Shown: piece after piece, positions 2,304 through 62,413 of the stretch
How positions within the stretch are numbered: the stretch's first letter is position 1
How the letters are laid out: each line of letters begins with the position of its first letter
Assembly (NCBI GenBank): GCA_965198175.1
Contig: OZ240245.1
Span: 2,015,278 to 2,079,277, forward strand
Origin: Candidatus Poribacteria bacterium
GTDB taxonomy: Bacteria > Poribacteria > WGA-4E > PCPOR2b
Direction of reading: 5' to 3'
Length of the DNA: 64,000 nucleotides
The notes under the pieces: generated by a model
The model's database searches: none
What the model was told of the DNA's origin: nothing
The model's input: only the letters and a program-made list of their open reading frames with translations
Made by a program: the position numbers and the translations under genes

Positions 2304-2504
2304 GGAACGGGATCCGCGCCTCGGCATGAACCTCATGTCCATCTTGCAAAGTAGTCTAAAAGGTAAGATTTTCTCGAAGACTTGACGCTGTGTAAATCTA
2401 CTTTGGCATCTGACTTGATAAAGTATGTATCATCAGGTAGGCATCGCAGCTAAATCTAGCAAAGGTTCATCCAATTTCAACTGAGTAGAGCGCTCTTCCG
2501 AAGT

Positions 2505-2834
2505 CTAACTTTCTAGCGGTGCGTCAATCTCCATCTCAAGCAGAATCGCGCTAAATCCCTTACCGTGCCCATCAATCATCAACGAACGCGAAACCCCGCC
2601 TCCAAGTGCGTTACGAACAACGAAGTTTAACGCGCCAATTCTCGGCAGTTCGTAGCGCTCTATTTGCCCGTGCGGTATGTCCTTGAGAAAGTCATCTACA
2701 GCTTCAACCGTCACGTGTTCCTTCACCCACTCGTAGTGAGCTTGGTTGTAGACAATCAGCCCGATATTGACGGTGTCCGCCTTGTCACCCGATCGCGAGT
2801 GACATATCTGTCTAAGTTTAATCCGATCAGCCAT
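2505..2834 (-). CDS. AtuA C-terminal-domain-like small protein
   Basis: HSRSGDKADTVNIG and LGGGVSRSLMIDGHGK motifs; directly downstream of the AtuA-family gene; ATG at 2834 after GGGGAA. Confidence 0.8.
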   Translation of the reverse strand: MADRIKLRQICHSRSGDKADTVNIGLIVYNQAHYEWVKEHVTVEAVDDFLKDIPHGQIERYELPRIGALNFVVRNALGGGVSRSLMIDGHGKGFSAILLEMEIDAPLES

Positions 2835-2847
2835 AGTAATTCCCCTT

Positions 2848-4215
2848 TCACTCCACAACGAATTCGTGTACGTCAAACTGCACGGCTTCTTGTGGCAACA
2901 GCGTGGTATAAAGTCCAATGACTTGCTCTGGCCCCGCTTGGTAATCGAGCCGCAGTCCTTGGCTTACGCCCGCCGGTCCGTTCAGAGCGAGTGACTCAAC
3001 GTCGTGCAATACTTCCCACGCCTGTTCTTGGGTCTCAAAATAGCCGCTCACTCTCAGCTCAACTTCTTTTACGGCAGACAGATCTATATCCGGCCAGGGG
3101 AAGAGTGCGTTGACCCCAACGAAATCGAACCGCAAGGCAGATCTGTCAATACCGTGAACGTGGGTTGCCCGCTCGGCAATTGTATCGGCTGCTAGCTTTG
3201 CTCTCGCATACGCCCCAGTTCCACCATAGTAGGCTCGGCTAACTGCCACAAAGTTTTCACGCACACCGAGAAGTACCTTGACCATTGAAGGTCGAGGATG
3301 CCCTCTCGTCCCGGTTACGCTAACTCGATTTGAGCCAGCTTGTTTAATCTCGGTGTTGGTGAAATCGACTACGCCATCGTTATGGATGTAGTTGCTAGGG
3401 TCATGAAGTTCGTAGAGCAGTTGCTCTTTGACAGTTCGCTCGGATACTACCCCACCGGTATTGGAAACCTTCGTGATAATGGCGTCTCCATTCGCTTGCA
3501 CCTCTGCGATAGGCATTCCAATGTCGTCTAAACCCGATACATCCTTCATCCCGGGATCTGCGTGGTATCCACCGGAAAGCTGTGCACCGCACTCCATCAA
3601 GTGTCCAATGCTAAGCCCTCTCGCCATCAGATCCCAATCATCCAGCCGCCAATCCATTTCAAATATCAACGGCGCGAGAAATTGGGTGGAATCACCGGCT
3701 CTGCTCGTAATCACGATATTTGCGCCGCGCCGCAACCCCTCAACAATCAGCGGTGCACCTTGATAGGTGATGGCTGCTACAAGCCTATCGCCGAAGGTAG
3801 AGACTGGTTCACCTGTCTCGGTTGTTACTGGATTTATTTCTTTGATGAGATCGGCACTACTGTCCGGCTGGGTATAAGCGACTTTGATGCCGCTAATGTT
3901 CAGCTCATCGCAGATTTCGGCTGCTAGCTTAACCGCACCCTCTACATCTGCACTTCCACCATTGTGAATAATCTTAACACCATTCTTGACGCATGTTGGG
4001 AGTACAGTTCGCAGTGTCCTACCAAGCGTTACATCGTATCCGATATCACCCTTTGCCTTGCGTAGGGCGGATTCAGAATACGCTTTTTCCGACTGAGCGT
4101 CAAAAATTAGATAATCAATCTCACCATACTCCGCTAGTTTAAGTGCGGCGTCTATGCGATCTCCACCGGCGCCGGAGCCGCTTCCTAACCGAACTGTTGA
4201 TTTTCGTGTTTTTAT
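2848..4215 (-). CDS. acyclic terpene utilisation AtuA family protein (DUF1446)
   Basis: GHLMECGAQLSGG, VKEQLLYELHDPSNY and GPAG motifs; start uncertain (ATA 4215 behind AAGGAGG, or GTG 4296). Confidence 0.85.
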   Translation of the reverse strand: MKTRKSTVRLGSGSGAGGDRIDAALKLAEYGEIDYLIFDAQSEKAYSESALRKAKGDIGYDVTLGRTLRTVLPTCVKNGVKIIHNGGSADVEGAVKLAAEICDELNISGIKVAYTQPDSSADLIKEINPVTTETGEPVSTFGDRLVAAITYQGAPLIVEGLRRGANIVITSRAGDSTQFLAPLIFEMDWRLDDWDLMARGLSIGHLMECGAQLSGGYHADPGMKDVSGLDDIGMPIAEVQANGDAIITKVSNTGGVVSERTVKEQLLYELHDPSNYIHNDGVVDFTNTEIKQAGSNRVSVTGTRGHPRPSMVKVLLGVRENFVAVSRAYYGGTGAYARAKLAADTIAERATHVHGIDRSALRFDFVGVNALFPWPDIDLSAVKEVELRVSGYFETQEQAWEVLHDVESLALNGPAGVSQGLRLDYQAGPEQVIGLYTTLLPQEAVQFDVHEFVVE

Positions 4216-11127: not shown

Positions 11128-13221
11128 ATGACGCAACAAGACACCATCCAAACGATACTCAAGGACAGTGATTATCATCTTTCCTTGTTTAAGGAAAACG
11201 AGATTGAAGTGCTGTGCGACAATACCTTCATCAAAACTGTTAAAGGTGAAGAGAAGCCATTTGTAAACTGCATCGTGCGGGATAAAAGCATTCAGCTCAA
11301 ACCAGAAGAAGTCGTCCGCCAGCTTTATGCAGCGAGGCTAATCAATGAATACGGCTATCCCAAAACACGATTGGCTTTTGAGCATTCTGTAAACTTTGGT
11401 CGGCAGAAGAAAAGTGCCGATGTTGTTATCCTCGACAAAGACCGCCCTGATACTGCCTATATCATCGTTGAGTTGAAAAAACCCAAACTCAAGGACGGAA
11501 AAAACCAACTTAAATCCTACTGCAATGCGACCGGTGCCCCAATCGGTGTTTGGACAAACGGGGAGCAGATTTCTCATTACAATCGCAAGGATCCGAATTT
11601 CTTTGAAGAAATCACTGATATTCCCAACGTTGACCACGGTCTTGAGGATATCCTCGCCGAACACTTCACGCTGAAAGATCTAATTCTCAAAGACAAAATT
11701 GCCAATGAGCGGAAATCCTTGAAAAGCATCGTTCTGGAAATGGAGGATGAAGTACTGGCAAATGCTGGGGTGGATGTCTTTGAGGAGGTTTTCAAACTCA
11801 TATTCACCAAACTTTATGACGAATTCCGTAGTCGCGACGACAAGAAGGTAATCAACTATTTCTTGGCGCCAGTAATCAATACACTCGTGCATGATGAAGC
11901 CGACACGAACGATGTCGGCGCTGAAGATTACGATGTGCTCAAAGCAGAGGTTGCGAAGATTGTAGATGACCGCTTTCGAGTAATGGAGTTTAGGAATACC
12001 GGGCAGACCGACACCGAGCTAAAAGTTAAGATTCAGCGTCTTTTCGAAGCGGCGAAAAACCAATGGCCGGGCGTTTTTCCAGAAGGTGCTGCTTTTGAAC
12101 TCACGGACAGCCATTTAGCCATCTGTGTATCTAGCCTGCAAGATATAAAGCTCTTCAACTCCAATCTGCTGGTGGTGGATGAAGCTTTCGAATACTTGGT
12201 GAACAAATCCGCCAAAGGGGAAAAGGGGCAGTATTTTACACCCCGCCATGTGATTGATATGTGCGTTCAGATGCTGAATCCCCAACCCGGTGAGTATATG
12301 ATTGACACCGCGTCAGGCAGTTGTGGTTTCCCGGTGCATACCACTTTCAAAATCACCGGCCACCTTTTTTCCAATCAAGAAATCCCAGAAACAGATAAGC
12401 AGGAGGTACGCAAAGTCTTTGGCATTGACTTCGACGAAAAAACTGTGAGAGTTGCCAGAACATTGAACTTAATCGCCGGGGATGGAGAAAGCAACGTCTT
12501 ACATTTGAATACGTTGGATTTTGAACGTTGGAGGGACAGGACAGAGAGTGACAGAAAATGGATAAGAACTTATGGCGACGGCTTCTCGCGGTTGGAGAAA
12601 CTGAGAACCGACACAGAGGAAAATAAACGATTTAACTTTGATATCCTGATGGCAAATCCGCCCTTTGCTGGAGACATCAAAGAGAGCCGCCTGCTGCATC
12701 AATACCAACTCGGTTTCAAGGCAAACGGTGCGGCGCAGAGTAAAGTCGGGCGTGACATCTTGTTTATCGAGCGCAATCTGGACTTTCTCAAGCCCGGTGG
12801 ACGCATGGCGATTGTGTTGCCGCAGGGCAGATTCAACAACGCTTCCGACAAACGTATCCGCGATTATATCGCCGAACGTGCACGTATCCTTGCGGTCGTC
12901 GGTTTACATGGCAACACTTTCAAACCCCACACCGGCACGAAGACCAGCGTCCTGTTTGTGCAGAAGTGGGATGACAAGCTGTGTCCCAAAGTGGAAGACT
13001 ACCCGATTTTCTTTGCCGTGAGCGAAAAGGCTGGGAAAAACAATTCGGGTGATTATGTCTATGCAAAGAACTGTAACGGACAGTATAAATTAGACAATAA
13101 CGGCCATCTGATTGTTGAACATGATTTGCATAGCCATGAGGGAAAATTAGATGATGGCATCGCTGAAGCCTTTGTTGAGTGGGCAAAGGGTGAAAAATTG
13201 TCATTTTCGCGTGATGATTAA
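11128..13221 (+). CDS. fused restriction endonuclease (HsdR_N-like) / N6-adenine DNA methyltransferase, Type IIB-like R-M subunit
   Basis: N-terminal PEEVVRQ...ADVVI...IVELKK PD-(D/E)xK core; GQYFTPRHV, IDTASGSCGF (motif I) and NPPF (motif IV). Confidence 0.9.
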   Translation: MTQQDTIQTILKDSDYHLSLFKENEIEVLCDNTFIKTVKGEEKPFVNCIVRDKSIQLKPEEVVRQLYAARLINEYGYPKTRLAFEHSVNFGRQKKSADVVILDKDRPDTAYIIVELKKPKLKDGKNQLKSYCNATGAPIGVWTNGEQISHYNRKDPNFFEEITDIPNVDHGLEDILAEHFTLKDLILKDKIANERKSLKSIVLEMEDEVLANAGVDVFEEVFKLIFTKLYDEFRSRDDKKVINYFLAPVINTLVHDEADTNDVGAEDYDVLKAEVAKIVDDRFRVMEFRNTGQTDTELKVKIQRLFEAAKNQWPGVFPEGAAFELTDSHLAICVSSLQDIKLFNSNLLVVDEAFEYLVNKSAKGEKGQYFTPRHVIDMCVQMLNPQPGEYMIDTASGSCGFPVHTTFKITGHLFSNQEIPETDKQEVRKVFGIDFDEKTVRVARTLNLIAGDGESNVLHLNTLDFERWRDRTESDRKWIRTYGDGFSRLEKLRTDTEENKRFNFDILMANPPFAGDIKESRLLHQYQLGFKANGAAQSKVGRDILFIERNLDFLKPGGRMAIVLPQGRFNNASDKRIRDYIAERARILAVVGLHGNTFKPHTGTKTSVLFVQKWDDKLCPKVEDYPIFFAVSEKAGKNNSGDYVYAKNCNGQYKLDNNGHLIVEHDLHSHEGKLDDGIAEAFVEWAKGEKLSFSRDD

Positions 13222-13345
13222 TGGTCCCAACAGAATTCAAATCGGCTATAGAATTAGGTTTACTCGCAAGCAGGATATTCGCGCTCATTTTCATGACACG
13301 GCGTATATTTTATAAAACATAGTCGTTTCAGGTGGGGGATAACTA

Positions 13346-14755
13346 GTGCATTTTTCAATTGCCGCTTATTCGGAATTAGAACGAACCAAGAGAATTGATG
13401 CTGAATTTTTTTTGCCTGTGTATCGTGAATTGAATAAGGTGTTGTCTGCGAAGACAGTTCAGCCATTAACGGCATTGTGCAATGTATCAGATGGCAATCA
13501 TATGTCGGTCGCTCATCATTTTCAGGACGAAAAGGGTATTCCTTATTTTCGAGGACAAGATATCAATACAGATTTCTTTATTGAGAATGCCACACCTACA
13601 TTCATCCCGGAGAACATTTACGCCCTCCCCTATATGAAAAGGTCATGGTTTCAAAATGGAGATATATTGTTATCTATCGTTGGGACAATTGGGAGCTTGT
13701 CTATTGTCACGGATAAAATCAAGAAATCTACTGGAAGTTGCAAAATTGCTATTCTTCGCCCCAAGAGAAAGAGTAGTGAATATATTGCTACCTTTCTACA
13801 ATCAAAATATGGCCAATTCCAAATAAAGCGAAATACGAGAGGTGCAGTTCAGCAAGGTCTTCTTTTGGAAGACATGGAGCAGATTAAGGTTTATATTCCA
13901 TCAGAAAAGTTGGAGAAATCCATCTGCAGAGATATCCAAGCTTCTATTGAATTAAATAGATCTTCAACAGAGATGTACAGAGAAGCCCAAACCCTCCTAC
14001 TTTCAGAACTCGGACTTAACGACTGGCAACCCAAACACCGGCTGACCTTTGTCAAAAACTACTCCGACGCTGAACAAGCTGATCGCATCGATGCAGACTA
14101 TTTTCAACCAAAATATGAGGAAATTGTCCAAATTATCAAAAGCTATTCTGGCGGTTGGGATACGCTGGGGAATCTGGTGACAATAAGGAAATGTGTAGAG
14201 GTGGGAAGCAAAGAATACCGTACCGAGGGTGTTCCTTTTGTGCGTGTGAGCAATCTAAGCCCTTTTGAAATCACCGAAGAAAAGTACATTTCCGAGGAAT
14301 TGTATGGAAAAATTATACAGTATCAACCTGAACAGGGCGAGATACTATTCAGCAAAGACGCAACCCCAGGCATAGCCTATTACTTGAGCGAACAACCCAA
14401 GAAAATGATACCCTCTGGCGGGATACTCCGCCTGAGAAGCAAAACGAATAAAATCAAGAACGAATATTTGATGCTTGTGCTCAATTCAATACTGACAAGA
14501 GAACAAGTAAACCGTGATGTCGGGGGATCCTTAATTCTACATTGGCGCCCAGAACTGGTCAAAGCAACAGTCATTCCATTGTTACCCGAAGAAAAACAAA
14601 TCCAAATCCAGCAGAAGGTCATTGAATCCTTTAGCTTGCGAAGACAGTCCAATCACCTAGTGGAATGTGCCAAGCACGCGGTGGAGATGGCCATTGAGCA
14701 AGACGAACAAACCGCGATTGACTGGCTGGAAAATAAAACGCAGGAGGTAACCTGA
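13346..14755 (+). CDS. restriction-modification specificity (S) subunit with two target-recognition domains
   Basis: Repeated RIDAEFF / RIDADYF conserved blocks flanking two variable regions; visibly AT-rich; GTG start after GGGGGA. Confidence 0.85.
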   Translation: MHFSIAAYSELERTKRIDAEFFLPVYRELNKVLSAKTVQPLTALCNVSDGNHMSVAHHFQDEKGIPYFRGQDINTDFFIENATPTFIPENIYALPYMKRSWFQNGDILLSIVGTIGSLSIVTDKIKKSTGSCKIAILRPKRKSSEYIATFLQSKYGQFQIKRNTRGAVQQGLLLEDMEQIKVYIPSEKLEKSICRDIQASIELNRSSTEMYREAQTLLLSELGLNDWQPKHRLTFVKNYSDAEQADRIDADYFQPKYEEIVQIIKSYSGGWDTLGNLVTIRKCVEVGSKEYRTEGVPFVRVSNLSPFEITEEKYISEELYGKIIQYQPEQGEILFSKDATPGIAYYLSEQPKKMIPSGGILRLRSKTNKIKNEYLMLVLNSILTREQVNRDVGGSLILHWRPELVKATVIPLLPEEKQIQIQQKVIESFSLRRQSNHLVECAKHAVEMAIEQDEQTAIDWLENKTQEVT

Positions 14756-16080
14756 TGAACATCACTCAATTCACAATAGAGGAAGTACGCTGTTTTGCCG
14801 GACGGCAAGAGTTCAACATTCGTCCCTTAACGTTTTTAGTCGGGGAAAATAGTACCGGCAAGACCACAACATTGGCGTGTTTTGAGATGTTAGCAAATTA
14901 CTTGGCAACGGGAGAAATAGATTTTAATTCGCACCCTTATTCAATGGGAATCTTTAAAGATATTGTCAGAAGGACCACAAAAAAAGACAAAGCCTTTAAG
15001 CTTGGACTTGCCTTTAGGTGGCCTGGGAAAACTGGTCCCGTTGAACATACCGTTGAATTTGTTGAAAAAGAGGGAGGCATTGAACCCGCTGTCAGGTCAG
15101 TGACGCTGAAATTCACTGACGGCGAAATCGTGATTAGCGCTGATGATACAAGGGAAGAGGGTGTGCCTTTCATCTCCTGTGATAAAGAACAGAATCAGTA
15201 TCGTATAGGAGTGCATTCTGCTATTCTAGATAGGCGCTCGCCACTCTTCTTTTTAGACAGACCTGTTCATAGAGAGGAACAGCCGTCTGATGGCGAAATG
15301 GCCTTAGCGAACTATTTACAGGAGAAGCGTGGAGGTATGATATACCCATCGTGGAGGACAAGGGCTGGCGCCGTATTTAGTACTTCGCCGGTTCGTTCTC
15401 AACCGAAGCGGACCTATGACCCGACAAGGGAATTTGATGACCCTGAGGGCAGCGATATTCCGATGCGGTTAATGCGGATAAAGGCTACGGATGAAAAGAA
15501 ATGGGAAGACTTGAAAGCGGAGTTGGTTAAATTTGGTAAAAGCTCGGGTCTTTTTCAGAACATAGAGGTTAAAAACCTTGGTAGATCTATGGGCAGCTCA
15601 TTCCAATTGACAGTCAAAGTAAGGGGACCAAACTCCAATATCATTGATGTTGGCTACGGAGTCAGTCAAATTTTGCCGATTTTGGTGTATATTTTTGATC
15701 AGCCTGTCTCTCGGCGGCGTATTTATAGAAGCGGAAGAATTCCCTTCTTTCTATTACAACAACCTGAGGTCCATCTGCACCCGAGGGCGCAGGCAGAACT
15801 CTCTTCTTTACTAGCTAAGTCGGCACGCCGGGGTCCGAGTGGGTGGACCTTCATTGTTGAAACGCACAGTGACTATATGATTGACCGGGCACGCGTTGAA
15901 ATCAGGAAAGGCAATATCCGCCCTGAAGATGTGTCGCTGATATATCTGGAGCCAAAGGGGCGTGTTGTCAAGGTGCATAATATCAGTTTTGATAAGATGG
16001 GCAATATGGAGGGGGTGCCGCCGCATTACAGAGAATTTTTCCTGAACGAAACCGACCGCCTCATGGGTTTTGAGGATTAA
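14755..16080 (+). CDS. ABC/AAA_21-type ATPase (DUF3696-like C-terminus)
   Basis: Walker A GENSTGKTT, signature-like DVGYGVSQILP, Walker B region LLQQPEVHLHP, H-loop VETHSDY; ATG overlaps the S-subunit stop (TGATG). Confidence 0.88.
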   Translation: MNITQFTIEEVRCFAGRQEFNIRPLTFLVGENSTGKTTTLACFEMLANYLATGEIDFNSHPYSMGIFKDIVRRTTKKDKAFKLGLAFRWPGKTGPVEHTVEFVEKEGGIEPAVRSVTLKFTDGEIVISADDTREEGVPFISCDKEQNQYRIGVHSAILDRRSPLFFLDRPVHREEQPSDGEMALANYLQEKRGGMIYPSWRTRAGAVFSTSPVRSQPKRTYDPTREFDDPEGSDIPMRLMRIKATDEKKWEDLKAELVKFGKSSGLFQNIEVKNLGRSMGSSFQLTVKVRGPNSNIIDVGYGVSQILPILVYIFDQPVSRRRIYRSGRIPFFLLQQPEVHLHPRAQAELSSLLAKSARRGPSGWTFIVETHSDYMIDRARVEIRKGNIRPEDVSLIYLEPKGRVVKVHNISFDKMGNMEGVPPHYREFFLNETDRLMGFED

Positions 16081-16082
16081 TT

Positions 16083-16517
16083 ATGTGTATTATCTTGGAC
16101 ACCAACGCGTTTGGTGAATTTAAAAAACGAGACAAGGGGAAGAAAAACAAACACATGGCGCCTATATGGAATTGGTTGGACGGAAAGCACGGCAAAATTG
16201 TCTATTCTCCTACCGAGAAGATCAAAAGAGAATGGCTAAAGGGAGGAATGAAAAATCATATGAGAACATTAAATCAAGCCGGGAAACTCAAACTTATTCC
16301 CGCTAAGGATGTACAAGCGAAAGCTAATGTATTAGACCAAACAGGTGCACTCAAATCTGATGACGCACATATTATCGCGCTGGCGATGATTGCGAGAGTA
16401 GAGGTATTGGTCTCCGCTGACAAGGCATTGCACGCCGATTTTAGGGCTATGGTCGGGGGCGAAGTGTACATGACAAAAAGCCATTCGCACTTGCTGACTA
16501 GAGATACCTGCCCTTAG
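16083..16517 (+). CDS. PIN-domain protein (putative ribonuclease)
   Basis: ILDTN...KREW...SDDAHII...VSADK acidic tetrad typical of the PIN fold; starts 2 nt after the ATPase stop. Confidence 0.8.
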   Translation: MCIILDTNAFGEFKKRDKGKKNKHMAPIWNWLDGKHGKIVYSPTEKIKREWLKGGMKNHMRTLNQAGKLKLIPAKDVQAKANVLDQTGALKSDDAHIIALAMIARVEVLVSADKALHADFRAMVGGEVYMTKSHSHLLTRDTCP

Positions 16518-16694
16518 TAGGGAATAACGATCCTTACGCTGGGATCCCAACATGCACTTATCCCAAAAACCGACATATGCCAAGCGAGCGGTAGAGATTG
16601 GTGGGCTTCATCGTTAGGTGTTTCACCCTTCCTTGCCGTTGAGGCCTGGGGATATTCGCCGTAACCTAACGCAGCAAACACACAGGAGAATCAC

Positions 16695-17156
16695 ATGACA
16701 GATGTCAAATCGTTGGTAGTTGGCATGGATGCGCCGGACTTAGAGATGGAAGATGCGGATGGCGTTGTCCATCGCCTGCGCGATTACGTCGGGAAGAAAA
16801 ACGTCGTTCTGGCGTTTTATCCCAAAGACTTTACCAGTGGCTGAACGGCGGAGGTTTGCTCGCTCCGGGATGAGTCGAGCCAATTTGCAGCGCACGATGT
16901 ACAAGTTTTCGGTGTTAGTGTACAGGACGCTGAAAGCCACAAAAAGTTTGCGGAACAGTACGACCTGAACTTTCCGCTTCTTGTAGACACGGACCGCTCA
17001 TTCAGCTTGCTATTCGGCGCTACTGACCAGCCGGATGGCATGAGTAGCCGTATGACGGTCGTCATTGATAAAGCCGGAAAGATTATCAAGCTTGATAAGC
17101 AGGTCAACGCGAAAGCGCACGGCAAAGATTTAATCGACTTCTTCGAGTCGAGGTAA
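16695..17156 (+). CDS. selenocysteine-containing peroxiredoxin (BCP/PrxQ, AhpC-TSA family), 153 aa, copy 1
   Basis: RBS CAGGAG, ATG 16695; FYPKDFTSG-U(TGA 16842-16844)-TAEVCSLRD matches BCP FYPKDxTPGCTxEAC; frame continues with DLNFPLLVD and RMTVVIDKAG to TAA 17156. Confidence 0.9.
16858..16880 (+). promoter_or_regulatory. bacterial SECIS-like hairpin
   Basis: GCTCG-CTC-[CGGGAT]-GAG-T-CGAGC; loop starts 22 nt after the UGA with G in the second loop position, consistent with the bacterial SECIS model. Confidence 0.7.
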
Positions 17157-17240
17157 TCCGATAACGCTCTCGAACGCGGAACGTTTGCCCGACTTTTACC
17201 GCTAGCCGGTATTCGACATGAAAACTGGCGCTTTTTGCGC

Positions 17241-18150
17241 TCGGGATCGCCTCCGGGGGAAAAGTGATTCACAAGGAAACTTCCTTCAACTGCCATCCCT
17301 CCGATTTCAACTAAATCTGGTCTATCCCAGCCATCGGCACCGAGGAACGTTGCTAGAATGCTGAAATCGGCGGACTTTGCCTGCTTAACTGCCACCGGGA
17401 ATTCGGAACCCAAGCCGGCGAGAAAGACAACATCAACCGCAGGATCAACTGCGGCAATTGGTGTCAGTTGCTCGGTAAAATCTGTTGCGCCCGTGACGTA
17501 AAATTGTTGAATTGTAATTGTGCCGCCTTGCGCAGAAAAATGTTTAAATAAAAGCCTTCGAAACTCCCTCCGAGTAAGCATCACCTATTTCTGTGAGCAC
17601 TGCCGCCGTCGATGCCCCCAACTGTTGCGTAGCGAATCTAGCTACCACCCCCGCCTGAAACGGATCGGTGTAGGCACCCATGAACGAAAAATTTACCGGG
17701 CCGGTAACTTTAGGATTTGTTGGATAGGTTGTAACCATCGGAACGCCGTGCTGTAAAGCAACCTTGCCCACCACCACACCTTCTTCATCGTAGTCGGGAC
17801 CAACGATTGCGGATACGCCCGCAGCAATCAGTTCTTCTGCGTGTTGGGCGCTGAGTGAAGGATTCCTTTTGTCATTTCGAACGAGGGGTTCTATCGGTAT
17901 GCCGCTTATGCCTCCGGTTTCATTTGCAAGGGCGACAGCCAACTCGGCACCATTCCGAGTCGTGCCTGGATCAGGCGGACTATAGCGGACTATAAATGAA
18001 ACCTATTTTGACTGTTACTGCGCTGTCAAGTGTTTCCGAATCTGCTGAAGCAGTGAACTGTTGAATCAGCTCGCCCCCTAAAATGAAAATGCCCATTAAG
18101 AAAAATGAGGCAATGCACCTGAACGTTGTTCTGTGCTGTTGAAACATCAT
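17241..18150 (-). pseudogene. branched-chain amino acid ABC transporter substrate-binding protein (LivJ-like) pseudogene
   Basis: Signal-peptide start ATG 18150; 10-bp tandem duplication GCGGACTATA (17975-17994) and a +1 T near 17547 break the frame; 3' end truncated at SPGGDPE by the duplicated block. Confidence 0.85.
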
Positions 18151-34459: not shown

Positions 34460-36445
34460 ATGAAAACAACTTTAACGTTACTTGCGCTTTTCATCCTGTC
34501 CTCATGCAACACCTCCTCCCATGATTCCCCGCAATGGGGTTTACCTGAAGGGGTTAAAGTACGCCTCGGAAAGGGCGCGATAGGTCAAATACAATATTCT
34601 CCCGATGGCACGCGGCTTGCCGTCGGCAGTGGTATCGGTATCTGGCTCTACGATACAACGACCCATCAAGAGGTTGCCCTGCTCACCGGACATTCGGGGG
34701 TTGTCATGAGTGTCGCGTTCAGCCCGGATGGCAGCATACTGGCGAGCGGGAGTTCGGACAAAACCGTTCGTCTGTGGGATGCCGCAACGGGTGCACACCT
34801 ACACACATTGGAGCGACATGCGGATGCCATCATGAGTGTCGCGTTCAGCCCGGATGGCGGCACGCTAGCAAGTGTGTCGCATACGACCATTCGTCTGTGG
34901 GATGTCGAGACGAAAACATCTAAGCGGTCATTGGAACTGCGAACCCTGAAAGGAGATACATTTTCCGTCAGCACTGTCGCGTTCAGCCAGGACATCTCGA
35001 TGTTGGCGGGCGGGAGTTATGGCAAGACCTTCCATCTATGGGATGCGGTGACAGGTATACAACTTCACACACTAGAAGGTCATACGGAGTATGTGACTAG
35101 CTTCGCTTTTAGTCCGGATGGCGGTACACTGGCAAGTGGAAGTTGGGGTGATAGCATCCGCCTGTGGGATGCTAAGACGGGGATACACCTTCGGAAACTG
35201 GAAGAACGTGTACCTATGGTCTCGTGCGTCGCCTTCAGCCCGGATGGCGGCGCGCTCGCAAGTGGTGGACCTGGCACGACCATCGATTTGTGGGATGCTG
35301 CAACCGGCGCGCGGCTGCGTACACTGGAAGGACATGCGGGTTGGGTCACTGATGTCGCCTTCAGTCGGGACGGCGCAACGCTAGCAAGTGGGAGTGACGA
35401 CTCGACCATCCGTCTGTGGAATCGGGCGACGGGCGCACACCTAGGAACACTAAAGGGACATATAAGTTATGTCAATAGCCTCGCCTTCAGCCCGGACAAC
35501 GCAACGTTGGCAAGTGCGAGTCGGCGAGATCCCATCCGTCTATGGGATGCAGCGACGGGCGCGCACAAGCGGTCACTGCACCGGTATCTATCGCACGCCA
35601 ATAACGTCGCATTTAGCCCTGATGGACGAACGCTGGTGAGTGGGAGCGATGATTACCATACCATTGAGTTCTGGAATGTCAGGACAGGCGCGCACCTGCG
35701 ATCACTGAGAAGCGATACGGGCGATCACTACAGCATCGCATTCAGCTCAGATGGTTCTACCCTCGCGAGTGGGGATGGAAACACTTCCGTTCACCTGTGG
35801 AATGCGATGACAGGCGCGCACCTGCGATCACTGAGAAGCGATACGGGCGATCACTACAGCATCGCATTCAGCTCAGATGGTTCTACCCTCGCGAGTGGGG
35901 ATGGAAACACTTCCGTTCACCTGTGGAATGCGATGACAGGCGCGCACCTGCGATCACTGAGAAGCGATACGGGCGATCACTACAGCATCGCATTCAGCCC
36001 GGATGGCGCTACACTGGCAAGTGGGAGTGGCGACCATACCGTCCGTCTTTGGGATGTCGTGACAGGGGCACACCAGCAAACTCTGAAGGGGCATACGGCG
36101 GACATCATTAGCGTCACCTTCAGCCCGGATGGCGCGACGCTAGCAAGTGGGAGTGGGGACAATACCGTCCGACTTTGGGAGGCCGTGACGGGGACACATC
36201 GCCGGACCTTAGAGGGACATACGTTGGATGTCTGCACCGTCGCTTTTAGTCCGGATGGTGGCACAGTAGCAAGTGGGAGTGGGGACACTACCATACGTCT
36301 TTGGGATACCGGGACAGGCGCACACCAGCAAACCCTGAAGGGGCATACGTCAACCGTCAAAAGCCTCGCATTCAGCCCGGATGGCAGCACACTGGGAAGT
36401 GGGAGTTACGACGGCACCGTGCTCCTGTGGAATCTTTCCCGTTAG
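34460..36445 (+). CDS. WD40-repeat lipoprotein (15 repeats)
   Basis: Lipobox LSSC at residue 16; 15 AFSPDG-type repeats. Confidence 0.9.
   Translation: MKTTLTLLALFILSSCNTSSHDSPQWGLPEGVKVRLGKGAIGQIQYSPDGTRLAVGSGIGIWLYDTTTHQEVALLTGHSGVVMSVAFSPDGSILASGSSDKTVRLWDAATGAHLHTLERHADAIMSVAFSPDGGTLASVSHTTIRLWDVETKTSKRSLELRTLKGDTFSVSTVAFSQDISMLAGGSYGKTFHLWDAVTGIQLHTLEGHTEYVTSFAFSPDGGTLASGSWGDSIRLWDAKTGIHLRKLEERVPMVSCVAFSPDGGALASGGPGTTIDLWDAATGARLRTLEGHAGWVTDVAFSRDGATLASGSDDSTIRLWNRATGAHLGTLKGHISYVNSLAFSPDNATLASASRRDPIRLWDAATGAHKRSLHRYLSHANNVAFSPDGRTLVSGSDDYHTIEFWNVRTGAHLRSLRSDTGDHYSIAFSSDGSTLASGDGNTSVHLWNAMTGAHLRSLRSDTGDHYSIAFSSDGSTLASGDGNTSVHLWNAMTGAHLRSLRSDTGDHYSIAFSPDGATLASGSGDHTVRLWDVVTGAHQQTLKGHTADIISVTFSPDGATLASGSGDNTVRLWEAVTGTHRRTLEGHTLDVCTVAFSPDGGTVASGSGDTTIRLWDTGTGAHQQTLKGHTSTVKSLAFSPDGSTLGSGSYDGTVLLWNLSR
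35684..35998 (+). repeat. perfect 126-bp tandem repeat (2.5 units) inside the WD40 gene
   Basis: Units start at 35684, 35810 and 35936; encode HLRSLRSDTGDHYSIAFSSDGSTLASGDGNTSVHLWNAMTGA. Confidence 0.92.
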
Positions 36446-41942: not shown

Positions 41943-42099
41943 TATACTACACCTTTCCCACGGTAGGTCATGGCAATTCACGAGGATTCTCAAGTTGAGG
42001 CTCTTGCCGTTCAATGCACAAAAAGAGCCAGTTTTCATGTCGAATGCTGGCTAGCGGTAAAAGTCAGACAAACGTTCCGCGTTCGAGAGCGTTATCGGA

Positions 42100-42561
42100 T
42101 TACCTCGACTCGAAGAAGCCGATTAAATCCTCGCCGTGCGCATTCGCGTTTACCTGCTTATCATGCTTGATTATCTTTCCAGCTTTATCAATGACGACCG
42201 TCATGCGGCTACTCATGCCATCCGGCTGGTCAGTAGCGCCGAATAGCAAGCTGAATGAGCGGTCCGTGTCTACAAGAAGCGGAAAGTTCAGGTCGTACTG
42301 TTCCGCAAACTTTTTGTGGCTTTCAGCGTCCTGTACACTAACACCGAAAACTTGTACATCGTGCGCTGCAAATTGGCTCGACTCATCCCGGAGCGAGCAA
42401 ACCTCCGCCGTTCAGCCACTGGTAAAGTCTTTGGGATAAAACGCCAGAACGACGTTTTTCTTCCCGACGTAATCGCGCAGGCGATGGACAACGCCATCCG
42501 CATCTTCTATCTCTAAATCCGGCGCATCCATACCAACTTCCAACGATCTAAAGTCCGTCAT
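42100..42561 (-). CDS. selenocysteine-containing peroxiredoxin (BCP/PrxQ), 153 aa, copy 2
   Basis: ATG 42561 after CAGGAG; in-frame TGA at 42412-42414 in FTSG-U-TAEVC; same 462-bp length as copy 1. Confidence 0.9.
42376..42398 (-). promoter_or_regulatory. bacterial SECIS-like hairpin (identical to copy 1)
   Basis: Reverse complement of GCTCGCTCCGGGATGAGTCGAGC. Confidence 0.7.
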
Positions 42562-42757
42562 CTGTTTCTCCTGTGTGATTGCTGCATTAGGTTACGCTGA
42601 ATATCCCGATGTCACAACGGCAAGGAAGGGTGGAACCCGTAACATAATGACCCCCACCAATCTCCACCGCTCGCTTGGCGTATGCCGATAGGTGTAGCGA
42701 GATGATTTTTGGGATAAGTGCATTTTGGGATCCCATTGTAAGGACCGTTATGCCTTA

Positions 42758-43301
42758 CTAAGGGCAGGTATCTCTAGTCAGCAAGTGCGAATGGCTTTTT
42801 GTAATATACACTTTACCTCCAACAAAATTGCGATCCTTAAAGTCTTTCTGCAATTCTGGGTCGGCACCCCTTGGTCTTCTTCTTCCTCTACTCGGTATGC
42901 CGGGCAGGCGTTGGACAGCTAATACTTTCACACTCGCAATCATAGCCAATGCGATAATGTGTGGATCGTCGGACATAAGTTCACCTGTTTGCTCTAATGC
43001 ATCCGCTTTTGCTGGCACATCTTCAGCCGGCAGCAATTTGAATTTACCCATCCTTTGCAGTATCATCATTACTTGCTCCCAGCCCATTCTAATGGAGGAG
43101 GATGGACTTGCGCCTGGATATAGCAGTTTTATCATCAACTCGTACCCCCCCTCCTGCTTCCCATTCACTCCTAAATTTCTCGGTGGAAGAATAGACGATT
43201 TTGCCGTTTTCGCTCTCCAACCAATTCCGCACAGGTTCCATATCTTCATCAGTTGTGTTCCTGAAATTACTGAAACTATTGACATCCCAAATAATCCACA
43301 T
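42758..43301 (-). pseudogene. PIN-domain gene, frameshifted copy
   Basis: MWIIWDVN... and ...SDDPHII...SHSHLLTRDTCP lie in different frames, joined by removing one G from the G7 run (43145-43151). Confidence 0.8.
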
Positions 43302-43304
43302 TGC

Positions 43305-44437
43305 TTAATCCTCAAAACCCATGAGCCGCTTGGTTTCTTTCAGGAAAAATTCTCTGTGATGAGGCGGCACTTCCTCCATATTACCCATCGTATCGAAACT
43401 GATATTATGCACCTTGACAACATTCCCTTTTGGCTCCAAATATATCAGCGACACATCTTCGGGGCGGATGGTGCGATTCCTGATTTCAATGCGTGCGCGG
43501 TCAATCATATAGTCACTGTGCGTTTCAACAATAAACGACTGCCCACTCCGACCCCGGCTTGCCGGCGTAGCTAGTAAAGAGGAAAGTTCCGCCTGCGCCC
43601 CTCGGATGCAGATGGACTTCAGGCTGTTGTAATAGGAAGATGGGAATTCTTCCGCTTCTATAAATGCGCCGACGAGAGACAAGCTGATCGAAGACATTCA
43701 CTAAAATTGGCAAAATTTGACTGACACCATAGCCTACATCAATGACATTGGAGTTTGGTCCCCTTACCTTGACTGTCAGTTTGAATGGGTCGCCCATAGC
43801 CCCACCGAAGTTTCTAACGTCAATGTTGTGAAATAGCCCCGCACTCTTACCAAATTCGACTAACCTTGCTTTTAAAGCTTCCCATTTGTCTTTATTCGTC
43901 GCCTTTATCCGCATTAACCGTATCGGTATATCGCTCCCCTCAGGGCCATCAAATTCCCTCATTTGGTCATACGTCCGTTTCGGTTGAGAACGAATCGGTG
44001 ACATACTAAATACGGGACTTCCTCCCCACTCCCATGAATCTCCCAAACCTCCCTGCTTTTCCTGTAAATAGTTTGCTAATGCATTTTCTTCCTCATAACC
44101 CCGTTCTCCTCTATGACGAAAACGATCCAAAAAAAAAGAGGGAGAATTGCTATCCAAAATAGCAGAATTAACACCTATACTATACTGATCCTGTTCCTTA
44201 TCTACAGTACGTGTAAGGCATACCCCCTTTCCCTGCATCGTCAGCACTTAAAACGATTTCACCGTCAGTGTATTTCAGCGTCACTGACCTAACAGAGGGT
44301 TCAACCCCTCCCTTTTTTTCAACGAATTCAACTATCCATTCACCATCTCTCTTATTCTTGCCGCCAAAGGTACACCCAAGCCTAAACCCTTTCTCTTTTT
44401 TTATGCTGTTCCTGACAATACCCTTAAAGTTTCCCAT
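43305..44437 (-). pseudogene. ABC/AAA_21 ATPase, truncated and frameshifted copy
   Basis: Lacks the first 63 codons including Walker A; +1 insertions near 44203 and in the G4 run at 43598-43601. Confidence 0.88.
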
Positions 44438-44439
44438 TA

Positions 44440-45421
44440 GACATCTTTCCAAAATAGATTTGTGTAGTTATAGTAATCTTGGAGCATAGAATAACTATGG
44501 CGTTTGGCAGCTTGTCGAGGAGTGTCTCAAGTTAACAATTGCGGCAATCACATTCCATGTTTTCCCATAGTTGCGATGTTTGCCTCGATAGATGTCTTTG
44601 GTGATGCGAAAAATCTTACACCGTCTGACGATATGCTCAATGGCAACCCTTTGTGTTGCCAACCGTCGGTTGAATTGCTTCGCCTCCTGAGTCAAGGGCT
44701 TGCTCCGACATTTCTTGATGGGCGTCGAACTGTTGGCATACCGTTTGGCTATGCCCTGATAACCACTATCAGCCAACTTCTCAGTATCGGGGGAAATCGC
44801 CAGACGGCTTTCCTCTAGAATTCTGTAATCGTGAACGCTCCCTTTGCGGCAGATAACCGACAATAGTTCTAACAACGCCAAACACGCAATCAATTGAACT
44901 TTTATGGGTTTTTTTTACCGCTGTAGTAAGCACGCTGTCCTTTTGTTGGACGTTCAATGGGTTGCTCGGTGGCATCAATGACGATTGTTTGGAGATTGCC
45001 CGCTAACAAGTGCTTTCGATTCTTTATCGAAAACACGTTTACTAACACATCAAGTATCTGATGATAGATTTTATTTGCATAAGACTCACTGATACCGAAC
45101 TCCGAGCCTAACCTGGCAAAGGTTGGATAGTGACGCAAATAGGTGAATGTCAATAGAAGGCGGTCAATCAATGGCAGCCCCGATTTCCGTCCTCGCTTCT
45201 TCATCGGCTGTTCATCTCGAAGACTTTCGATATGAACAGCGACACGCTCCAAAATAAGGTTGAAAGTTGCCTTGTCTACACCAACGGCTCGCAGAAATTG
45301 CTCATCTGACAACTCTACTGCTTTTTCAAATTGACTCATGGTTATCCTTTCTACAATAGAAGATGTTTGAAAGGAATAACCTAAAATCATAACAAACGGA
45401 TACTTATTTTGGAAAGATGTC
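44440..45421 (-). mobile_element. IS5-family (ISL2/IS702-like) insertion sequence, 982 bp
   Basis: Perfect 17-bp terminal inverted repeats GACATCTTTCCAAAATA, flanked by TA on both sides; DDE_Tnp_4-type transposase. Confidence 0.85.
44495..45339 (-). CDS. IS5-family transposase split by a -1 frameshift at an A8 run
   Basis: HTH region, IDATE, YSGKK then (-1 frame) KVQL, ADSGY, RVAIEH; slippery GGTAAAAAAAAC near 44909-44919. Confidence 0.82.
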
Positions 45422-60708: not shown

Positions 60709-62058
60709 ATGAACGATATTATTATGAGAAATTCGAGAAAAGCGTTCCTGTGCTTCACAGCTTTGTGGCTTTCCTTGTGCAGTATAACAACTGTGGCATC
60801 TGCACAGACCGCCGAGCAGATTGCCGAAAAAGCGCTAGCGGCTACAGTCTATTTAGAGATGACGGATAGGAACGGCAAAACTCTCGGATTTGGCAGCGGC
60901 TTCTTTGTCGGGAAGAAACATATCGCAACCAACTTCCACGTTATTGAGGGAGCGGCAAAAGGCACCGCAAAACAGGTCGGCAAATACACGAAATATACCA
61001 TCGAAGGCATATCCGCGACCGATAAAAAAAACGACCTGGCCATCCTAAAGGTCACGGCGTTTAGGGGCGAACCCCTTCCCCTCGGTGACAGCGATGCGGT
61101 TAGAATTGGCGAAACGGTTTACGTTGCGGGCAACCCGAGAGGACTGGAGGGCACGTTCTCGAATGGCATCGTCAGCAGTCTCCGCGCGAGGTACACGCGA
61201 AAACGGATTCAGATGACCGCCCCAATTTCCCCGGGAAGCAGTGGTGGTCCCGTGCTAAACAGCAACGGAAAAGTCATTGGAGTCTCTTTCATGACTATTG
61301 AAGGCGGCCAGAACCTGAACTTTGCCATTCCGTCAAACTATCTCAAATCGCTGCTTCGACAGTTTGAACCAGCGAAACCTTACCGGCAAGCGGTACAAAC
61401 CACGGCTGATGCAGTCGAACTTGTCGCCGCCATCGCACATTATGACAAGGCAATTCGCTTGAAACCCGATCACGCCGATGACTACGTTAATCGGGGACTT
61501 TTGAAGTCTAAATTAAGCCAATATTCCGGCGCCATCGCTGATTATAGCAGGGCAATCCGTCTCAAACCCAATTACGCCAATGCCTATTACTATCGAGGGA
61601 AAGCGAAGCATGATTTAGAAAAGTATTCCGGTGCAATCGCCGATTATAGCAAGTCCATCCGCATAAAACCTGATTATGCTGCTGCCTACAACAATCGCGG
61701 GAAGGCGAAGGCTGACTTAGGTGAACACAACGCCGCCATCGCAGATTATGACAAGGCTATCCGCCTCAAACCCGATTATGTCGATGCATACGTCAATCGG
61801 GGACTTGCAGAGTATGACTTAGGTCAATACTCCGCTGCAATCACTGATTATGATGCTGCAATCCGTCTGAAACCCGATCTTGCCGCTGCCTACTACAATC
61901 GGGGACGTGCAAAGATTCTACTAGGGCTCACTAGAGAAGCCAAGCAGGATCTGCAATCCGCAATTAAACTGGCGGAACGGGGTGGCGATGGTAACCTCAA
62001 AGCTAAGAGTAGTTTAGTTCTTAGGCCAATCGAGTTGAAATCCCAACGATTGCGATGA
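60709..62058 (+). CDS. trypsin-like serine protease with C-terminal TPR repeats
   Basis: Signal peptide; catalytic triad TNFHV, NDLAIL, GSSGGP; about five 34-aa TPRs. Confidence 0.9.
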   Translation: MNDIIMRNSRKAFLCFTALWLSLCSITTVASAQTAEQIAEKALAATVYLEMTDRNGKTLGFGSGFFVGKKHIATNFHVIEGAAKGTAKQVGKYTKYTIEGISATDKKNDLAILKVTAFRGEPLPLGDSDAVRIGETVYVAGNPRGLEGTFSNGIVSSLRARYTRKRIQMTAPISPGSSGGPVLNSNGKVIGVSFMTIEGGQNLNFAIPSNYLKSLLRQFEPAKPYRQAVQTTADAVELVAAIAHYDKAIRLKPDHADDYVNRGLLKSKLSQYSGAIADYSRAIRLKPNYANAYYYRGKAKHDLEKYSGAIADYSKSIRIKPDYAAAYNNRGKAKADLGEHNAAIADYDKAIRLKPDYVDAYVNRGLAEYDLGQYSAAITDYDAAIRLKPDLAAAYYNRGRAKILLGLTREAKQDLQSAIKLAERGGDGNLKAKSSLVLRPIELKSQRLR

Positions 62059-62071
62059 GGATGGTTACACA

Positions 62072-62335
62072 ATGAACAGATCGCTAAGTGAATTCGATCC
62101 CCAGATTGTTGACATAATGCGCCAAGATTTGAATCGGCAGCAAAACTGTTTAACACTGATTCCGTCGGAAAACTATGCCAGTAAAGCGGTTATGCAGATG
62201 CAGAGCAGTATCCTTGCTAACAAGTATGCCGAGGGCTACGCTGGTGACCGATATTACAATGGCTGCGAGTTTATAGATCAAATAGAGACACAGTCACAAT
62301 TTGAATTGCCTAGAGAACGGTGTGGGTTGGGTTGA
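62072..62335 (+). pseudogene. glyA: 5' fragment of serine hydroxymethyltransferase
   Basis: LIPSENYAS...NKYAEGY..RYYNGCEFIDQIE, then homology stops after about 74 codons. Confidence 0.85.
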
Positions 62336-62413
62336 GAGCATATGTCTGTTAAGGAGAAGCATTGTTCTGTTTTTGAGAAGGTGGCGTTGTAAAGCTAGAA
62401 GCGATACAAACGG

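What the first reader, a model, noticed from the sequence alone, without database searches (positions are those of the whole stretch)
16695..17156. Hidden selenoprotein: BCP peroxiredoxin with Sec at the peroxidatic site
Seen: RBS, ATG, an in-frame TGA exactly where BCP/PrxQ has the peroxidatic Cys (T-S-G-U-T-A-E-V-C), 103 further homologous codons, and a SECIS-like hairpin whose loop starts 22 nt after the UGA. The ORF track misses it entirely. Established: Sec-Prx proteins exist but are rare and routinely misannotated. Implies selA/selB/selC/selD elsewhere in the genome.
Basis: partly seen in the sequence, partly recalled or inferred. Interest (0 to 1): 0.7.

Follow-up and report, generated by a model that had tools for sequence, protein, structure and literature searches.

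The report
Selenocysteine BCP peroxiredoxin gene, two copies
The in-frame TGA is very probably a selenocysteine codon at the catalytic site of a small peroxide-detoxifying enzyme (BCP/PrxQ peroxiredoxin) of a sponge-symbiont Poribacteria genome; gene callers truncate this gene, but it belongs to a selenoprotein family described since about 2005, so it is a correct but ordinary find.

Summary
Window 16695-17156 (+) is a 153-codon frame with an RBS, an ATG and one in-frame TGA at codon 50 (16842-16844). That TGA aligns with the peroxidatic Cys of BCP/AhpE peroxiredoxins (P-K-D-F-T-S-G-U, then C at +5).

- **Conservation:** the TGA is kept in all 13 orthologous sequences examined, 63-94% identical, all or nearly all Candidatus Poribacteria.
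- **Selection:** the coding sequence downstream of the TGA is under purifying selection (dN/dS 0.04-0.14).
- **SECIS:** a hairpin, GCUCGCUC-CGGGAU-GAG(U)CGAGC at 16858-16880, meets all four published bacterial SECIS criteria. It coincides with the deepest drop in synonymous variation in the gene and shows G-C/G-U/A-U covariation.
- **Code:** TGA is otherwise the commonest stop codon in the window.
- **Machinery:** no sel genes or tRNA-Sec lie in the window, but published tables list SelA, SelB and SelD in three Poribacteria genomes.

In most relatives the gene is a tandem BCP-BCP fusion with two Sec codons.

Sec-peroxiredoxins with TxxU, filed under COG1225 (Bcp as I recall), are already a known and abundant marine selenoprotein family. 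Verdict: new member of a known kind, modest interest.

The parts
16684..16688 (+). Shine-Dalgarno-like AGGAG, 6 nt upstream of the ATG
   Evidence: Read directly from the sequence.
16695..17156 (+). Sec-BCP peroxiredoxin CDS, copy A: 153 codons including U50, TAA stop included
   Evidence: Translation. Pfam AhpC-TSA E = 6.8e-36 and Redoxin E = 1.7e-23 spanning the TGA. Best solved-structure match is Bcp1 3drn, E = 2e-22. Orthologues in 9 Poribacteria genomes.
16833..16835 (+). Thr47 codon of the PxxxTxxU active-site motif
   Evidence: Invariant column T47 in alignment A3.
16842..16844 (+). UGA codon 50, read as selenocysteine at the peroxidatic position
   Evidence: Aligns with the peroxidatic Cys of AhpE and BCP. 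TGA at this column in all 13 orthologous sequences. No variant at these bases in DNA or RNA-library contigs.
16857..16859 (+). Cys55 codon, candidate resolving Cys (U-X4-C spacing typical of BCP)
   Evidence: Conserved in all domain-2-type orthologues. The resolving role is inferred from the BCP family.
16852..16886 (+). SECIS element. Core hairpin 16858-16880: 8 bp with a bulged U. Loop CGGGAU at 16866-16871. Weaker lower stem 16852-16855 with 16883-16886.
   Evidence: MFE -9.8 kcal/mol for the core. RNAalifold recovers it from 20 sequences. 159 of 160 core cells are paired, and pair 21-35 shows GC:11, GU:6, AU:2. Synonymous diversity is 0.07-0.10 here against about 0.5 gene-wide.
17049..17051 (+). 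Arg119 codon, the conserved active-site Arg of peroxiredoxins
   Evidence: Invariant column R119 in A3. Its role is inferred from the family.
42100..42561 (-). Sec-BCP peroxiredoxin CDS, copy B: 153 codons, UGA at 42412-42414, SECIS core at 42376-42398
   Evidence: Exact 23-nt SECIS core match. Sequence and ORFs. 8 aa differences from copy A, with codons 19-118 identical at the nucleotide level.
15052..17240 (.). Arm 1 of the ~2.2-kb inverted repeat that carries copy A
   Evidence: the repeat finder pairs I1-I6, 72-94% complementary.
42016..44332 (.). Arm 2 of the inverted repeat, carrying copy B. A DDE transposase gene lies next to it at 44498-45390 (-).

Best explanation
Window 16695-17156 (+) encodes a 153-residue atypical 2-Cys peroxiredoxin of the BCP/PrxQ type whose peroxidatic residue is selenocysteine (U50).

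**Inferred decoding mechanism.** During translation the UGA at 16842-16844 is decoded by Sec-tRNA(Sec), delivered by SelB. SelB is recruited by the mRNA hairpin 16858-16880, whose loop CGGGAU begins 22 nt after the UGA.

**Inferred enzyme mechanism.** The selenolate of U50, held by Thr47 and Arg119, reduces a peroxide and becomes a selenenic acid. Cys55 then attacks it to form an intramolecular selenenylsulfide. A thioredoxin-type reductant regenerates the enzyme.

**What is shown and what is inferred.** Shown here:
- homology across the stop
- conservation of the UGA
- purifying selection downstream
- conservation, limited covariation and correct geometry of the hairpin
- TGA acting as a normal stop elsewhere
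- contigs from RNA libraries spanning the UGA

Inferred: actual Sec insertion, the identity of the reductant, and the roles of C55, T47 and R119.
For: 1. AhpC-TSA E = 6.8e-36 over residues 9-131, spanning the stop. NCBIfam's best models are PrxQ and BCP.
2. The stop column equals the peroxidatic Cys in PDB alignments.
3. TGA is at the same column in 9 of 9 Poribacteria genomes (72-94% identity) and in three further metagenome orthologues.
4. dN/dS for the 100 codons after the TGA is 0.04-0.14.
5. The hairpin meets the published bSECIS criteria (PMC13188914). The loop is 6 nt, the stem 8 bp, G is at loop position 2, the spacing is 21 nt and the MFE is -9.8 kcal/mol.
6. The deepest synonymous-diversity minimum of the gene, 0.07-0.10 against about 0.5, lies exactly over the hairpin.
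7. Core pairs are 159 of 160 paired. One pair goes G-C, G-U, A-U. Slid controls give 22-45% paired against 95%.
8. Among distant relatives, 28 motif matches carry TGA at this column (about 25 of them true active-site TGAs) and 57 carry TGC/TGT. The TGA forms have their own hairpin at the same distance.
9. TGA terminates 21 of 50 long ORFs in the window.
10. Sponge metatranscriptome contigs span the UGA unchanged.
11. SelA, SelB and SelD COGs are present in Poribacteria bin70, bin44 and WGA-3G (PMC5649159 Table S4). Sec-hydrogenases are reported from Poribacteria MAGs (PMC13582414).
Against: - No selA, selB or selD domains and no tRNA-Sec were found in the 64-kb window, so the machinery was not shown for this genome.
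- Rfam has no hit.
- The single-sequence folding energy of the region is not better than shuffles. The isolated hairpin is only marginally better (z = -1.8).
- Covariation is thin. One pair has double changes, one sequence (L003) has an A·C mismatch, and most stem columns are invariant. The structure therefore rests more on conservation than on compensatory change.
- No protein-level evidence of selenium exists.
- The RNA-library contigs may include DNA carry-over.
Confidence: 0.9

Rival explanations
1. The UGA is recoded, but to cysteine or another standard residue. One route is a tRNA(ReC)-type Cys-tRNA with a UCA anticodon delivered by SelB. Another is low-level near-cognate read-through. 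Either would give an ordinary Cys-BCP.
For: tRNA(ReC) systems that use SECIS-dependent UGA recoding are described in the literature cited by PMC13582414. Nothing examined here distinguishes Sec from Cys at the protein level.
Against: SelA and SelD, needed only for Sec synthesis, are annotated in three Poribacteria genomes. A Cys codon would be simpler and is used by all the Cys homologues. The 13 orthologues all keep UGA plus the SECIS.
Confidence: 0.04
2. The gene is a pseudogene inactivated by a nonsense mutation in the catalytic Cys codon. Only a 49-aa stub is made.
For: The neighbouring periplasmic-binding-protein gene is a frameshifted, truncated pseudogene. The gene sits in a duplicated segment next to mobile DNA. 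Gene callers record only the 49-aa stub.
Against: The same TGA occurs in 13 orthologues with synonymous sites at or near saturation. dN/dS downstream is 0.04-0.14. There are no further stops or frameshifts in 103 codons in any orthologue. An RNA element is conserved immediately downstream.
Confidence: 0.02
3. The TGA is a sequencing or assembly error for TGC/TGT, or the organism reads TGA as a sense codon genome-wide (code 4 or 25).
For: None beyond the bare presence of an in-frame TGA.
Against: Independent assemblies of 9 genomes and several metagenomes, plus Logan contigs of 4 runs, all carry TGA. TGA is the most frequent terminator of long ORFs in the window, 21 of 50.
Confidence: 0.005

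Closest known systems
Bacterial selenoprotein family 'Peroxiredoxin (Prx)', TxxU motif, PF00578 / COG1225 (Zhang, Gladyshev and co-workers: PMC1088965, PMC1794560, PMC2398784; review PMC13188914)
   Same: Sec replaces the peroxidatic Cys in the PxxxTxxU motif. A bSECIS hairpin sits inside the coding region just downstream. Cys homologues are widespread. The setting is marine. Sargasso Table 1 files the family under COG1225, which I recall is the Bcp COG.
   Different: It has not previously been reported for Poribacteria in the papers I could search. Here it is present as two copies in an inverted repeat and is related to tandem double-Sec fusions.
BCP/PrxQ atypical 2-Cys peroxiredoxins (E. coli BCP; Sulfolobus Bcp1, PDB 3drn)
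   Same: Best structural-sequence match (E = 2e-22). Same length, about 150 aa. CP-X4-CR spacing. Conserved Thr and Arg.
   Different: Sec instead of Cys at the peroxidatic position. Scores are below NCBIfam's equivalog cut-offs for PrxQ (103 against 260 bits) and BCP (90 against 140 bits). The closest Cys homologues are 50% identical or less.
PrxU, the selenocysteine peroxiredoxin of Eubacterium acidaminophilum (NCBIfam NF040737; Sohling et al. 2001, cited in PMC13188914)
   Same: The Sec-containing peroxiredoxin that the review lists as experimentally characterised. Sec is at the peroxidatic site.
   Different: PrxU is a larger protein (233-position model). The window protein scores 56 bits against a cut-off of 270, so it is not a PrxU orthologue.
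Soil and freshwater metagenome Sec-Prx clade 'FFPAAFTGG-U-TKE..AYQAG' (loci L053-L117)
   Same: TGA at the same alignment column. About 107 codons follow it. A hairpin sits at the same distance.
   Different: Only 35-45% identity. No Cys at +5. A completely different SECIS sequence (GCAUACC-AGGCU-GGUAUGC).

Membership tests
Peroxiredoxin superfamily (AhpC/TSA, PF00578) | Significant match to the family profile above the curated cut-off | tested here: met
   123.4 bits against a cut-off of 26, E = 6.8e-36, residues 9-131.
Peroxiredoxin superfamily (AhpC/TSA, PF00578) | PxxxTxxC(U) active-site motif plus a conserved Arg | tested here: met
   P43-K-D-F-T47-S-G-U50. R119 is invariant in A3. The stop column aligns with the peroxidatic Cys in AhpE.
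BCP/PrxQ subfamily | Best matches are BCP/PrxQ models and structures | tested here: inconclusive
   The top NCBIfam models are PrxQ (103.5 bits) and BCP PRK09437 (90 bits), but both fall below the equivalog cut-offs of 260 and 140. The top PDB hit is Bcp1 3drn.
BCP/PrxQ subfamily | Resolving Cys five residues after the peroxidatic residue (CP-X4-CR) | tested here: met
   U50-T-A-E-V-C55, conserved in all domain-2-type orthologues. That this spacing defines BCP is from my own knowledge.
Bacterial Sec-Prx selenoprotein family (TxxU) | In-frame UGA aligned with the catalytic Cys of Cys-containing homologues (Sec/Cys pair) | tested here: met
   At that column, 57 motif matches carry TGC/TGT and 28 carry TGA (about 25 of these are true active-site TGAs).
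Bacterial Sec-Prx selenoprotein family (TxxU) | UGA conserved in orthologues, with coding constraint downstream | tested here: met
   13 of 13 orthologues keep it. dN/dS is 0.04-0.14.
Bacterial Sec-Prx selenoprotein family (TxxU) | bSECIS: 3-9 nt loop, 4-16 bp stem, G in loop position 1 or 2, 16-37 nt from the UGA, MFE <= -7.5 kcal/mol | tested here: met
   The loop CGGGAU is 6 nt with G at position 2. The stem is 8 bp. The spacing is 21 nt. The MFE is -9.8 kcal/mol. The criteria are from PMC13188914.
Bacterial Sec-Prx selenoprotein family (TxxU) | selA, selB, selC and selD present in the same genome | not testable with these tools
SelA, SelB and SelD COGs are present in three other Poribacteria genomes.
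Bacterial Sec-Prx selenoprotein family (TxxU) | Selenium actually incorporated | not testable with these tools
   Requires 75Se labelling or mass spectrometry.
PrxU (NF040737) | Score above the equivalog cut-off | tested here: not met
   56.4 bits against 270.

The most novel reading that the evidence does not exclude
The single-domain Sec-BCP genes of this genome may be deletion derivatives of a secreted tandem BCP-BCP double selenoprotein.

- The tandem form carries two UGA codons, each with its own copy of the same SECIS, and is found in most other Poribacteria examined.
- The derivatives would have formed by recombination between the two near-identical 'NVVLAFYPKDFTxG-UGA-SECIS' repeats.
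- The roughly 40-nt UGA+SECIS cassette appears to be kept almost invariant across domains, paralogues and even other peroxiredoxin genes of the sponge microbiome. This could reflect lineage-specific SelB recognition, gene conversion, or both.
- I found no description of a tandem double-Sec peroxiredoxin with a signal peptide in the papers searched.
Probability: 0.4. Interest if true: 0.45.

Novelty: new member of a known kind. Interest (0 to 1): 0.3.

Why it matters
**Annotation.** This gene and its paralogue are recorded in public collections only as 49-aa stubs. Their orthologues are recorded as 78-125-aa fragments. Poribacteria selenoproteomes, and with them the antioxidant capacity of sponge symbionts, are therefore under-counted.

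**Biology.** The result adds a direct selenoprotein target to the earlier observation that SelA and SelB are enriched in sponge symbionts (PMC5649159). A Sec peroxidatic residue is generally expected to be more reactive and harder to over-oxidise irreversibly than Cys. That would be plausible for symbionts living in heavily oxygenated sponge tissue.

**Limits.** It does not change what is known about Sec decoding or about peroxiredoxins.

Tried and rejected
- **Rfam gathering-threshold scan and ARAGORN on the whole window** found nothing. This is uninformative, because bacterial SECIS elements are too variable for one family model.
- **Single-sequence folding z-scores** of 60- and 101-nt windows were not significant. 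I therefore relied on comparative evidence.
No 3-D model was made.
- **Promoter and terminator consensus scan** of 16400-17400 found no sites.
- **Pfam scan of the 50 longest non-overlapping ORFs** found no SelA, SelB or SelD domains in the window.
- **Literature searches** for 'bacterioferritin comigratory protein' or 'PrxQ' together with selenocysteine returned nothing specific. The link to BCP comes from the COG1225 assignment in PMC1088965.
- **Rejected readings:** genome-wide TGA reassignment, pseudogene and assembly error.

Full report
**What is there**

Window 16695-17156 (+) translates to MTDVKSLVVGMDAPDLEMEDADGVVHRLRDYVGKKNVVLAFYPKDFTSG*TAEVCSLRDESSQ...FFESR*. That is 49 codons, a TGA at 16842-16844, 103 more codons, then TAA.

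AGGAG (16684-16688) lies 6 nt before the ATG. The ATG is the first start codon after an in-frame stop 11 codons upstream.

The ORF listing shows why an ORF track misses the gene. It appears as two 49-aa ORFs under a 255-aa antisense ORF. The public protein collection holds exactly the 49-aa stub of this gene, from a 4,924,403-bp contig, and nothing for the remainder.

**Homology and the position of the stop**

With C in place of the stop, the protein matches three things:
- Pfam AhpC-TSA (123 bits, E = 6.8e-36, residues 9-131) and Redoxin.
- NCBIfam PrxQ and BCP as its best models, though below their equivalog cut-offs. It scores far below PrxU, 56 against 270 bits.
- Sulfolobus Bcp1 (3drn, E = 2e-22), followed by AhpE and 2-Cys Prx structures.

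In those alignments the stop column is the peroxidatic Cys. The motif reads P43-K-D-F-T47-S-G-U50, the PxxxTxxU motif of Sec-peroxiredoxins (PMC13188914). Cys55 is at +5, which is the CP-X4-CR arrangement of BCP enzymes as I recall it.

**Comparative evidence that the UGA is decoded**

A scan of GTDB species representatives returned nine Candidatus Poribacteria genomes with orthologues at 72-94% identity. All nine have TGA at the same column and an open frame to the same C-terminus.

Truncated gene calls in the protein database (P0001-P0003, P0013, P0059) led to three further metagenome contigs with the same TGA.

For the 100 codons after the TGA, Nei-Gojobori dN/dS between the window and these orthologues is 0.04-0.14. 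Synonymous sites are at or near saturation in the more distant pairs. That rules out a decaying pseudogene.

TGA also terminates 21 of the 50 longest non-overlapping ORFs in the window. The organism therefore does not read TGA as sense in general.

Logan contigs of one DNA run and three sponge metatranscriptome runs cover the site with no variant at 16842-16844. DNA carry-over in the RNA libraries cannot be excluded.

**The SECIS**

The MFE fold after the UGA contains GCUCGCUC-CGGGAU-GAG(U)CGAGC (16858-16880). This hairpin has 8 pairs, one bulged U and a 6-nt loop that starts at the 22nd nt after the UGA. The isolated hairpin folds at -9.8 kcal/mol.

It meets all four constraints of the published bacterial SECIS model. 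Those are a loop of 3-9 nt, a stem of 4-16 bp, G in loop position 1 or 2, a spacing of 16-37 nt, and MFE <= -7.5 kcal/mol (PMC13188914).

Thermodynamics alone are not persuasive, with z = +0.24 and +1.49 for the wider windows. The comparative signal is stronger:
- In 13 orthologues the mean pairwise synonymous difference falls to 0.07-0.10 over codons +5 to +14 (C-S-L-R-D-E-S-S). Elsewhere it is about 0.45-0.6. This is the deepest minimum in the gene.
- RNAalifold on 20 UGA-downstream segments recovers the same hairpin.
- 159 of 160 core cells are paired. Pair 21-35 occurs as G-C (11), G-U (6), A-U (2) and A·C (1). Pair 17-39 occurs as G-C or G-U, and pair 23-32 as U-A or U-G.
- Sliding the 3' partners drops pairing from 95% to 22-45%.

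Covariation is modest because the element is almost invariant.

**Sec machinery**

The window has no tRNA gene. Pfam found no SelA, SelB or SelD domain in its 50 largest ORFs.

Published data fill part of the gap. Table S4 of Slaby et al. 2017 lists COG1921 (SelA), COG3276 (SelB) and COG0709 (SelD) in three Poribacteria genomes. The counts are 2/1/1 in bin70, 4/1/2 in bin44 and 2/1/1 in the single-cell genome WGA-3G. The paper notes SelA and SelB as symbiont-enriched.

Sec-containing group 4 hydrogenases have also been reported from Poribacteria MAGs.

- **A second copy.** The 23-nt hairpin core occurs a second time in the window, at 42377-42399 on the minus strand. Shuffles give an expectation of 0. 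It belongs to a second intact copy of the gene, 42100-42561 (-), which has its own AGGAG, ATG, TGA (42412-42414) and TAA.
- **An inverted repeat.** The two copies lie in a ~2.2-kb inverted repeat, 15052-17240 against 42016-44332, at 72-94% identity. The repeat also carries the 3' part of an AAA_15/AAA_21 ATPase ORF and a 144/185-aa ORF. A DDE transposase gene abuts arm 2.
- **How the copies differ.** Codons 19-118 are identical at the nucleotide level, and 16 differences (8 synonymous, 8 not) cluster at the two ends. This pattern suggests gene conversion. At most of the eight replaced positions copy A keeps the residue found in the orthologues L001-L003. Copy B carries L133H, K144E and D148G at conserved sites, so copy A looks the better conserved.
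- **A disrupted neighbour.** Arm 1 ends where a minus-strand periplasmic-binding-protein gene loses its homology. That gene is broken into three frames and has lost its 3' end. The repeat segment may have landed in it.

**Relatives with a different architecture**

In L004-L009, L037 and L038 the orthologue is a roughly 330-residue tandem BCP-BCP fusion. It is preceded by a signal-peptide-like leader (MSRISIFCITTIATFIITSAISA|EE...). It has two in-frame TGAs, each at the peroxidatic position of its domain:
- Domain 1 reads FTGG-U-TTELRSLRDE, with no Cys at +5.
- Domain 2 reads FTGG-U-TAEVCSLRDE.

Each TGA is followed by the same hairpin. In L034-L036, domain 1 has lost the active site (FLIGSTVV) while domain 2 keeps the TGA.

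The window protein appears to be a mosaic of the two domains:
- Its C-terminal 100 residues are clearly domain-2-like, 70-81% identical against 40-47% for domain 1.
- Its 41 codons before the TGA are closer to domain 1, 0.69-0.76 nucleotide identity against 0.59-0.63.
- The sequence just upstream of its ATG still resembles the end of the leader but contains stop codons.

A deletion by recombination between the two repeated active-site/SECIS segments would explain this. Unequal rates after a duplication could also explain it, so I treat the deletion as a hypothesis.

**Wider family**

The metagenome scan returned 80 distant relatives at 30-47% identity. At the peroxidatic column, 28 motif matches carry TGA, about 25 of them true active-site TGAs, and 57 carry TGC/TGT.

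The TGA forms are mostly a soil and freshwater clade reading FFPAAFTGG-U-TKE..AYQAG. Most continue for about 104-112 codons after the TGA. They carry a different hairpin (GCAUACC-AGGCU-GGUAUGC) at the same distance. L116 is another U-X4-C BCP-type example.

Sec at this position of small peroxiredoxins is therefore recurrent.

**Comparison with what is known**

- Sec-containing peroxiredoxins with TxxU are an established selenoprotein family. PrxU of Eubacterium acidaminophilum was characterised in 2001.
- Zhang et al. counted 12 such genes in genomes, with five independent Cys-to-Sec events (PMC1794560).
- The Sargasso Sea data held 43 genes, filed under COG1225, which is the Bcp COG as I recall it (PMC1088965).
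- GOS held 253 genes against 7,348 Cys homologues (PMC2398784).

The window gene is therefore a new member, from a new phylum, of a known kind. I found no description of tandem Prx-Prx double-Sec fusions. The GOS paper lists other Prx fusions but not this one. I searched only open-access text.

**Verdict**

The main residual alternative is SECIS-dependent insertion of Cys via a tRNA(ReC)-type system.

Interest is modest at 0.3. The gene class is well known. The useful additions are:
- the corrected annotation
- the second copy
- the link to SelA/SelB enrichment in sponge symbionts
- the tandem double-Sec relatives and the possible recombinational origin of the single-domain form

Noticed in passing
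window 42100-42561 (-): A second intact Sec-BCP gene (UGA at 42412-42414, identical SECIS core at 42376-42398). It has 8 aa differences from copy A. Codons 19-118 are 100% identical at the nucleotide level, with differences clustered at both ends, which suggests gene conversion.
   Followed up: yes
window 15052-17240 and 42016-44332: A ~2.2-kb inverted repeat (72-94% identity) carrying the 3' part of an AAA_15/AAA_21 ATPase ORF, a 144/185-aa ORF without a Pfam hit, and the Sec-BCP gene. A split DDE transposase (44498-45390, -) abuts arm 2.
   Followed up: partly
window 17160-18150 (-): A periplasmic binding protein gene (Peripla_BP_6) broken into three reading frames and lacking its 3' third. 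The homology ends at the boundary of repeat arm 1, as if the repeat segment had inserted into it.
   Followed up: partly
L004-L009 (about 2520-3432), L037 and L038 (about 2340-3267): The orthologues in other Poribacteria are tandem BCP-BCP fusions with a signal-peptide-like leader and two in-frame TGAs, one per domain. Each TGA has the same SECIS hairpin. Domain 1 lacks the Cys at +5.
   Followed up: partly
L034-L036: A tandem form in which domain 1 has lost the active site (FCPTDFLIGSTVV, neither Sec nor Cys) while domain 2 keeps TGA plus a hairpin with a compensated A-U pair.
   Followed up: no
window 16837-16880, seen in read laying of runs X1, X3, X5, X8: A depth spike. Other contigs of the same sponge samples share only the ~43-nt TGA+SECIS core and then diverge on both sides (for example ...YPRDFG.G-TGA...). 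This points to further Sec-peroxiredoxin genes with the same cassette in the community.
   Followed up: no
L047-L117 (metagenome loci): About 25 soil and freshwater peroxiredoxin genes (FFPAAFTGG-U-TKE..AYQAG) have TGA at the peroxidatic column and a different conserved hairpin, GCAUACC-AGGCU-GGUAUGC, at the same distance.
   Followed up: partly
window 11128-16080 (+): A defence-type island upstream of copy A: a type I R-M methylase with an HsdR-N domain (11128-13221), a specificity subunit (13346-14755) and an AAA_15/AAA_21 ATPase (14755-16080).
   Followed up: no
window 34460-36445, 60709-62058 and 61438-63991: Long WD40-repeat (126-nt units) and TPR-repeat (102-nt units) genes. Such eukaryote-like repeat proteins are, as I recall, typical of sponge symbionts. 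The repeat finder families are D1-D4.
   Followed up: no
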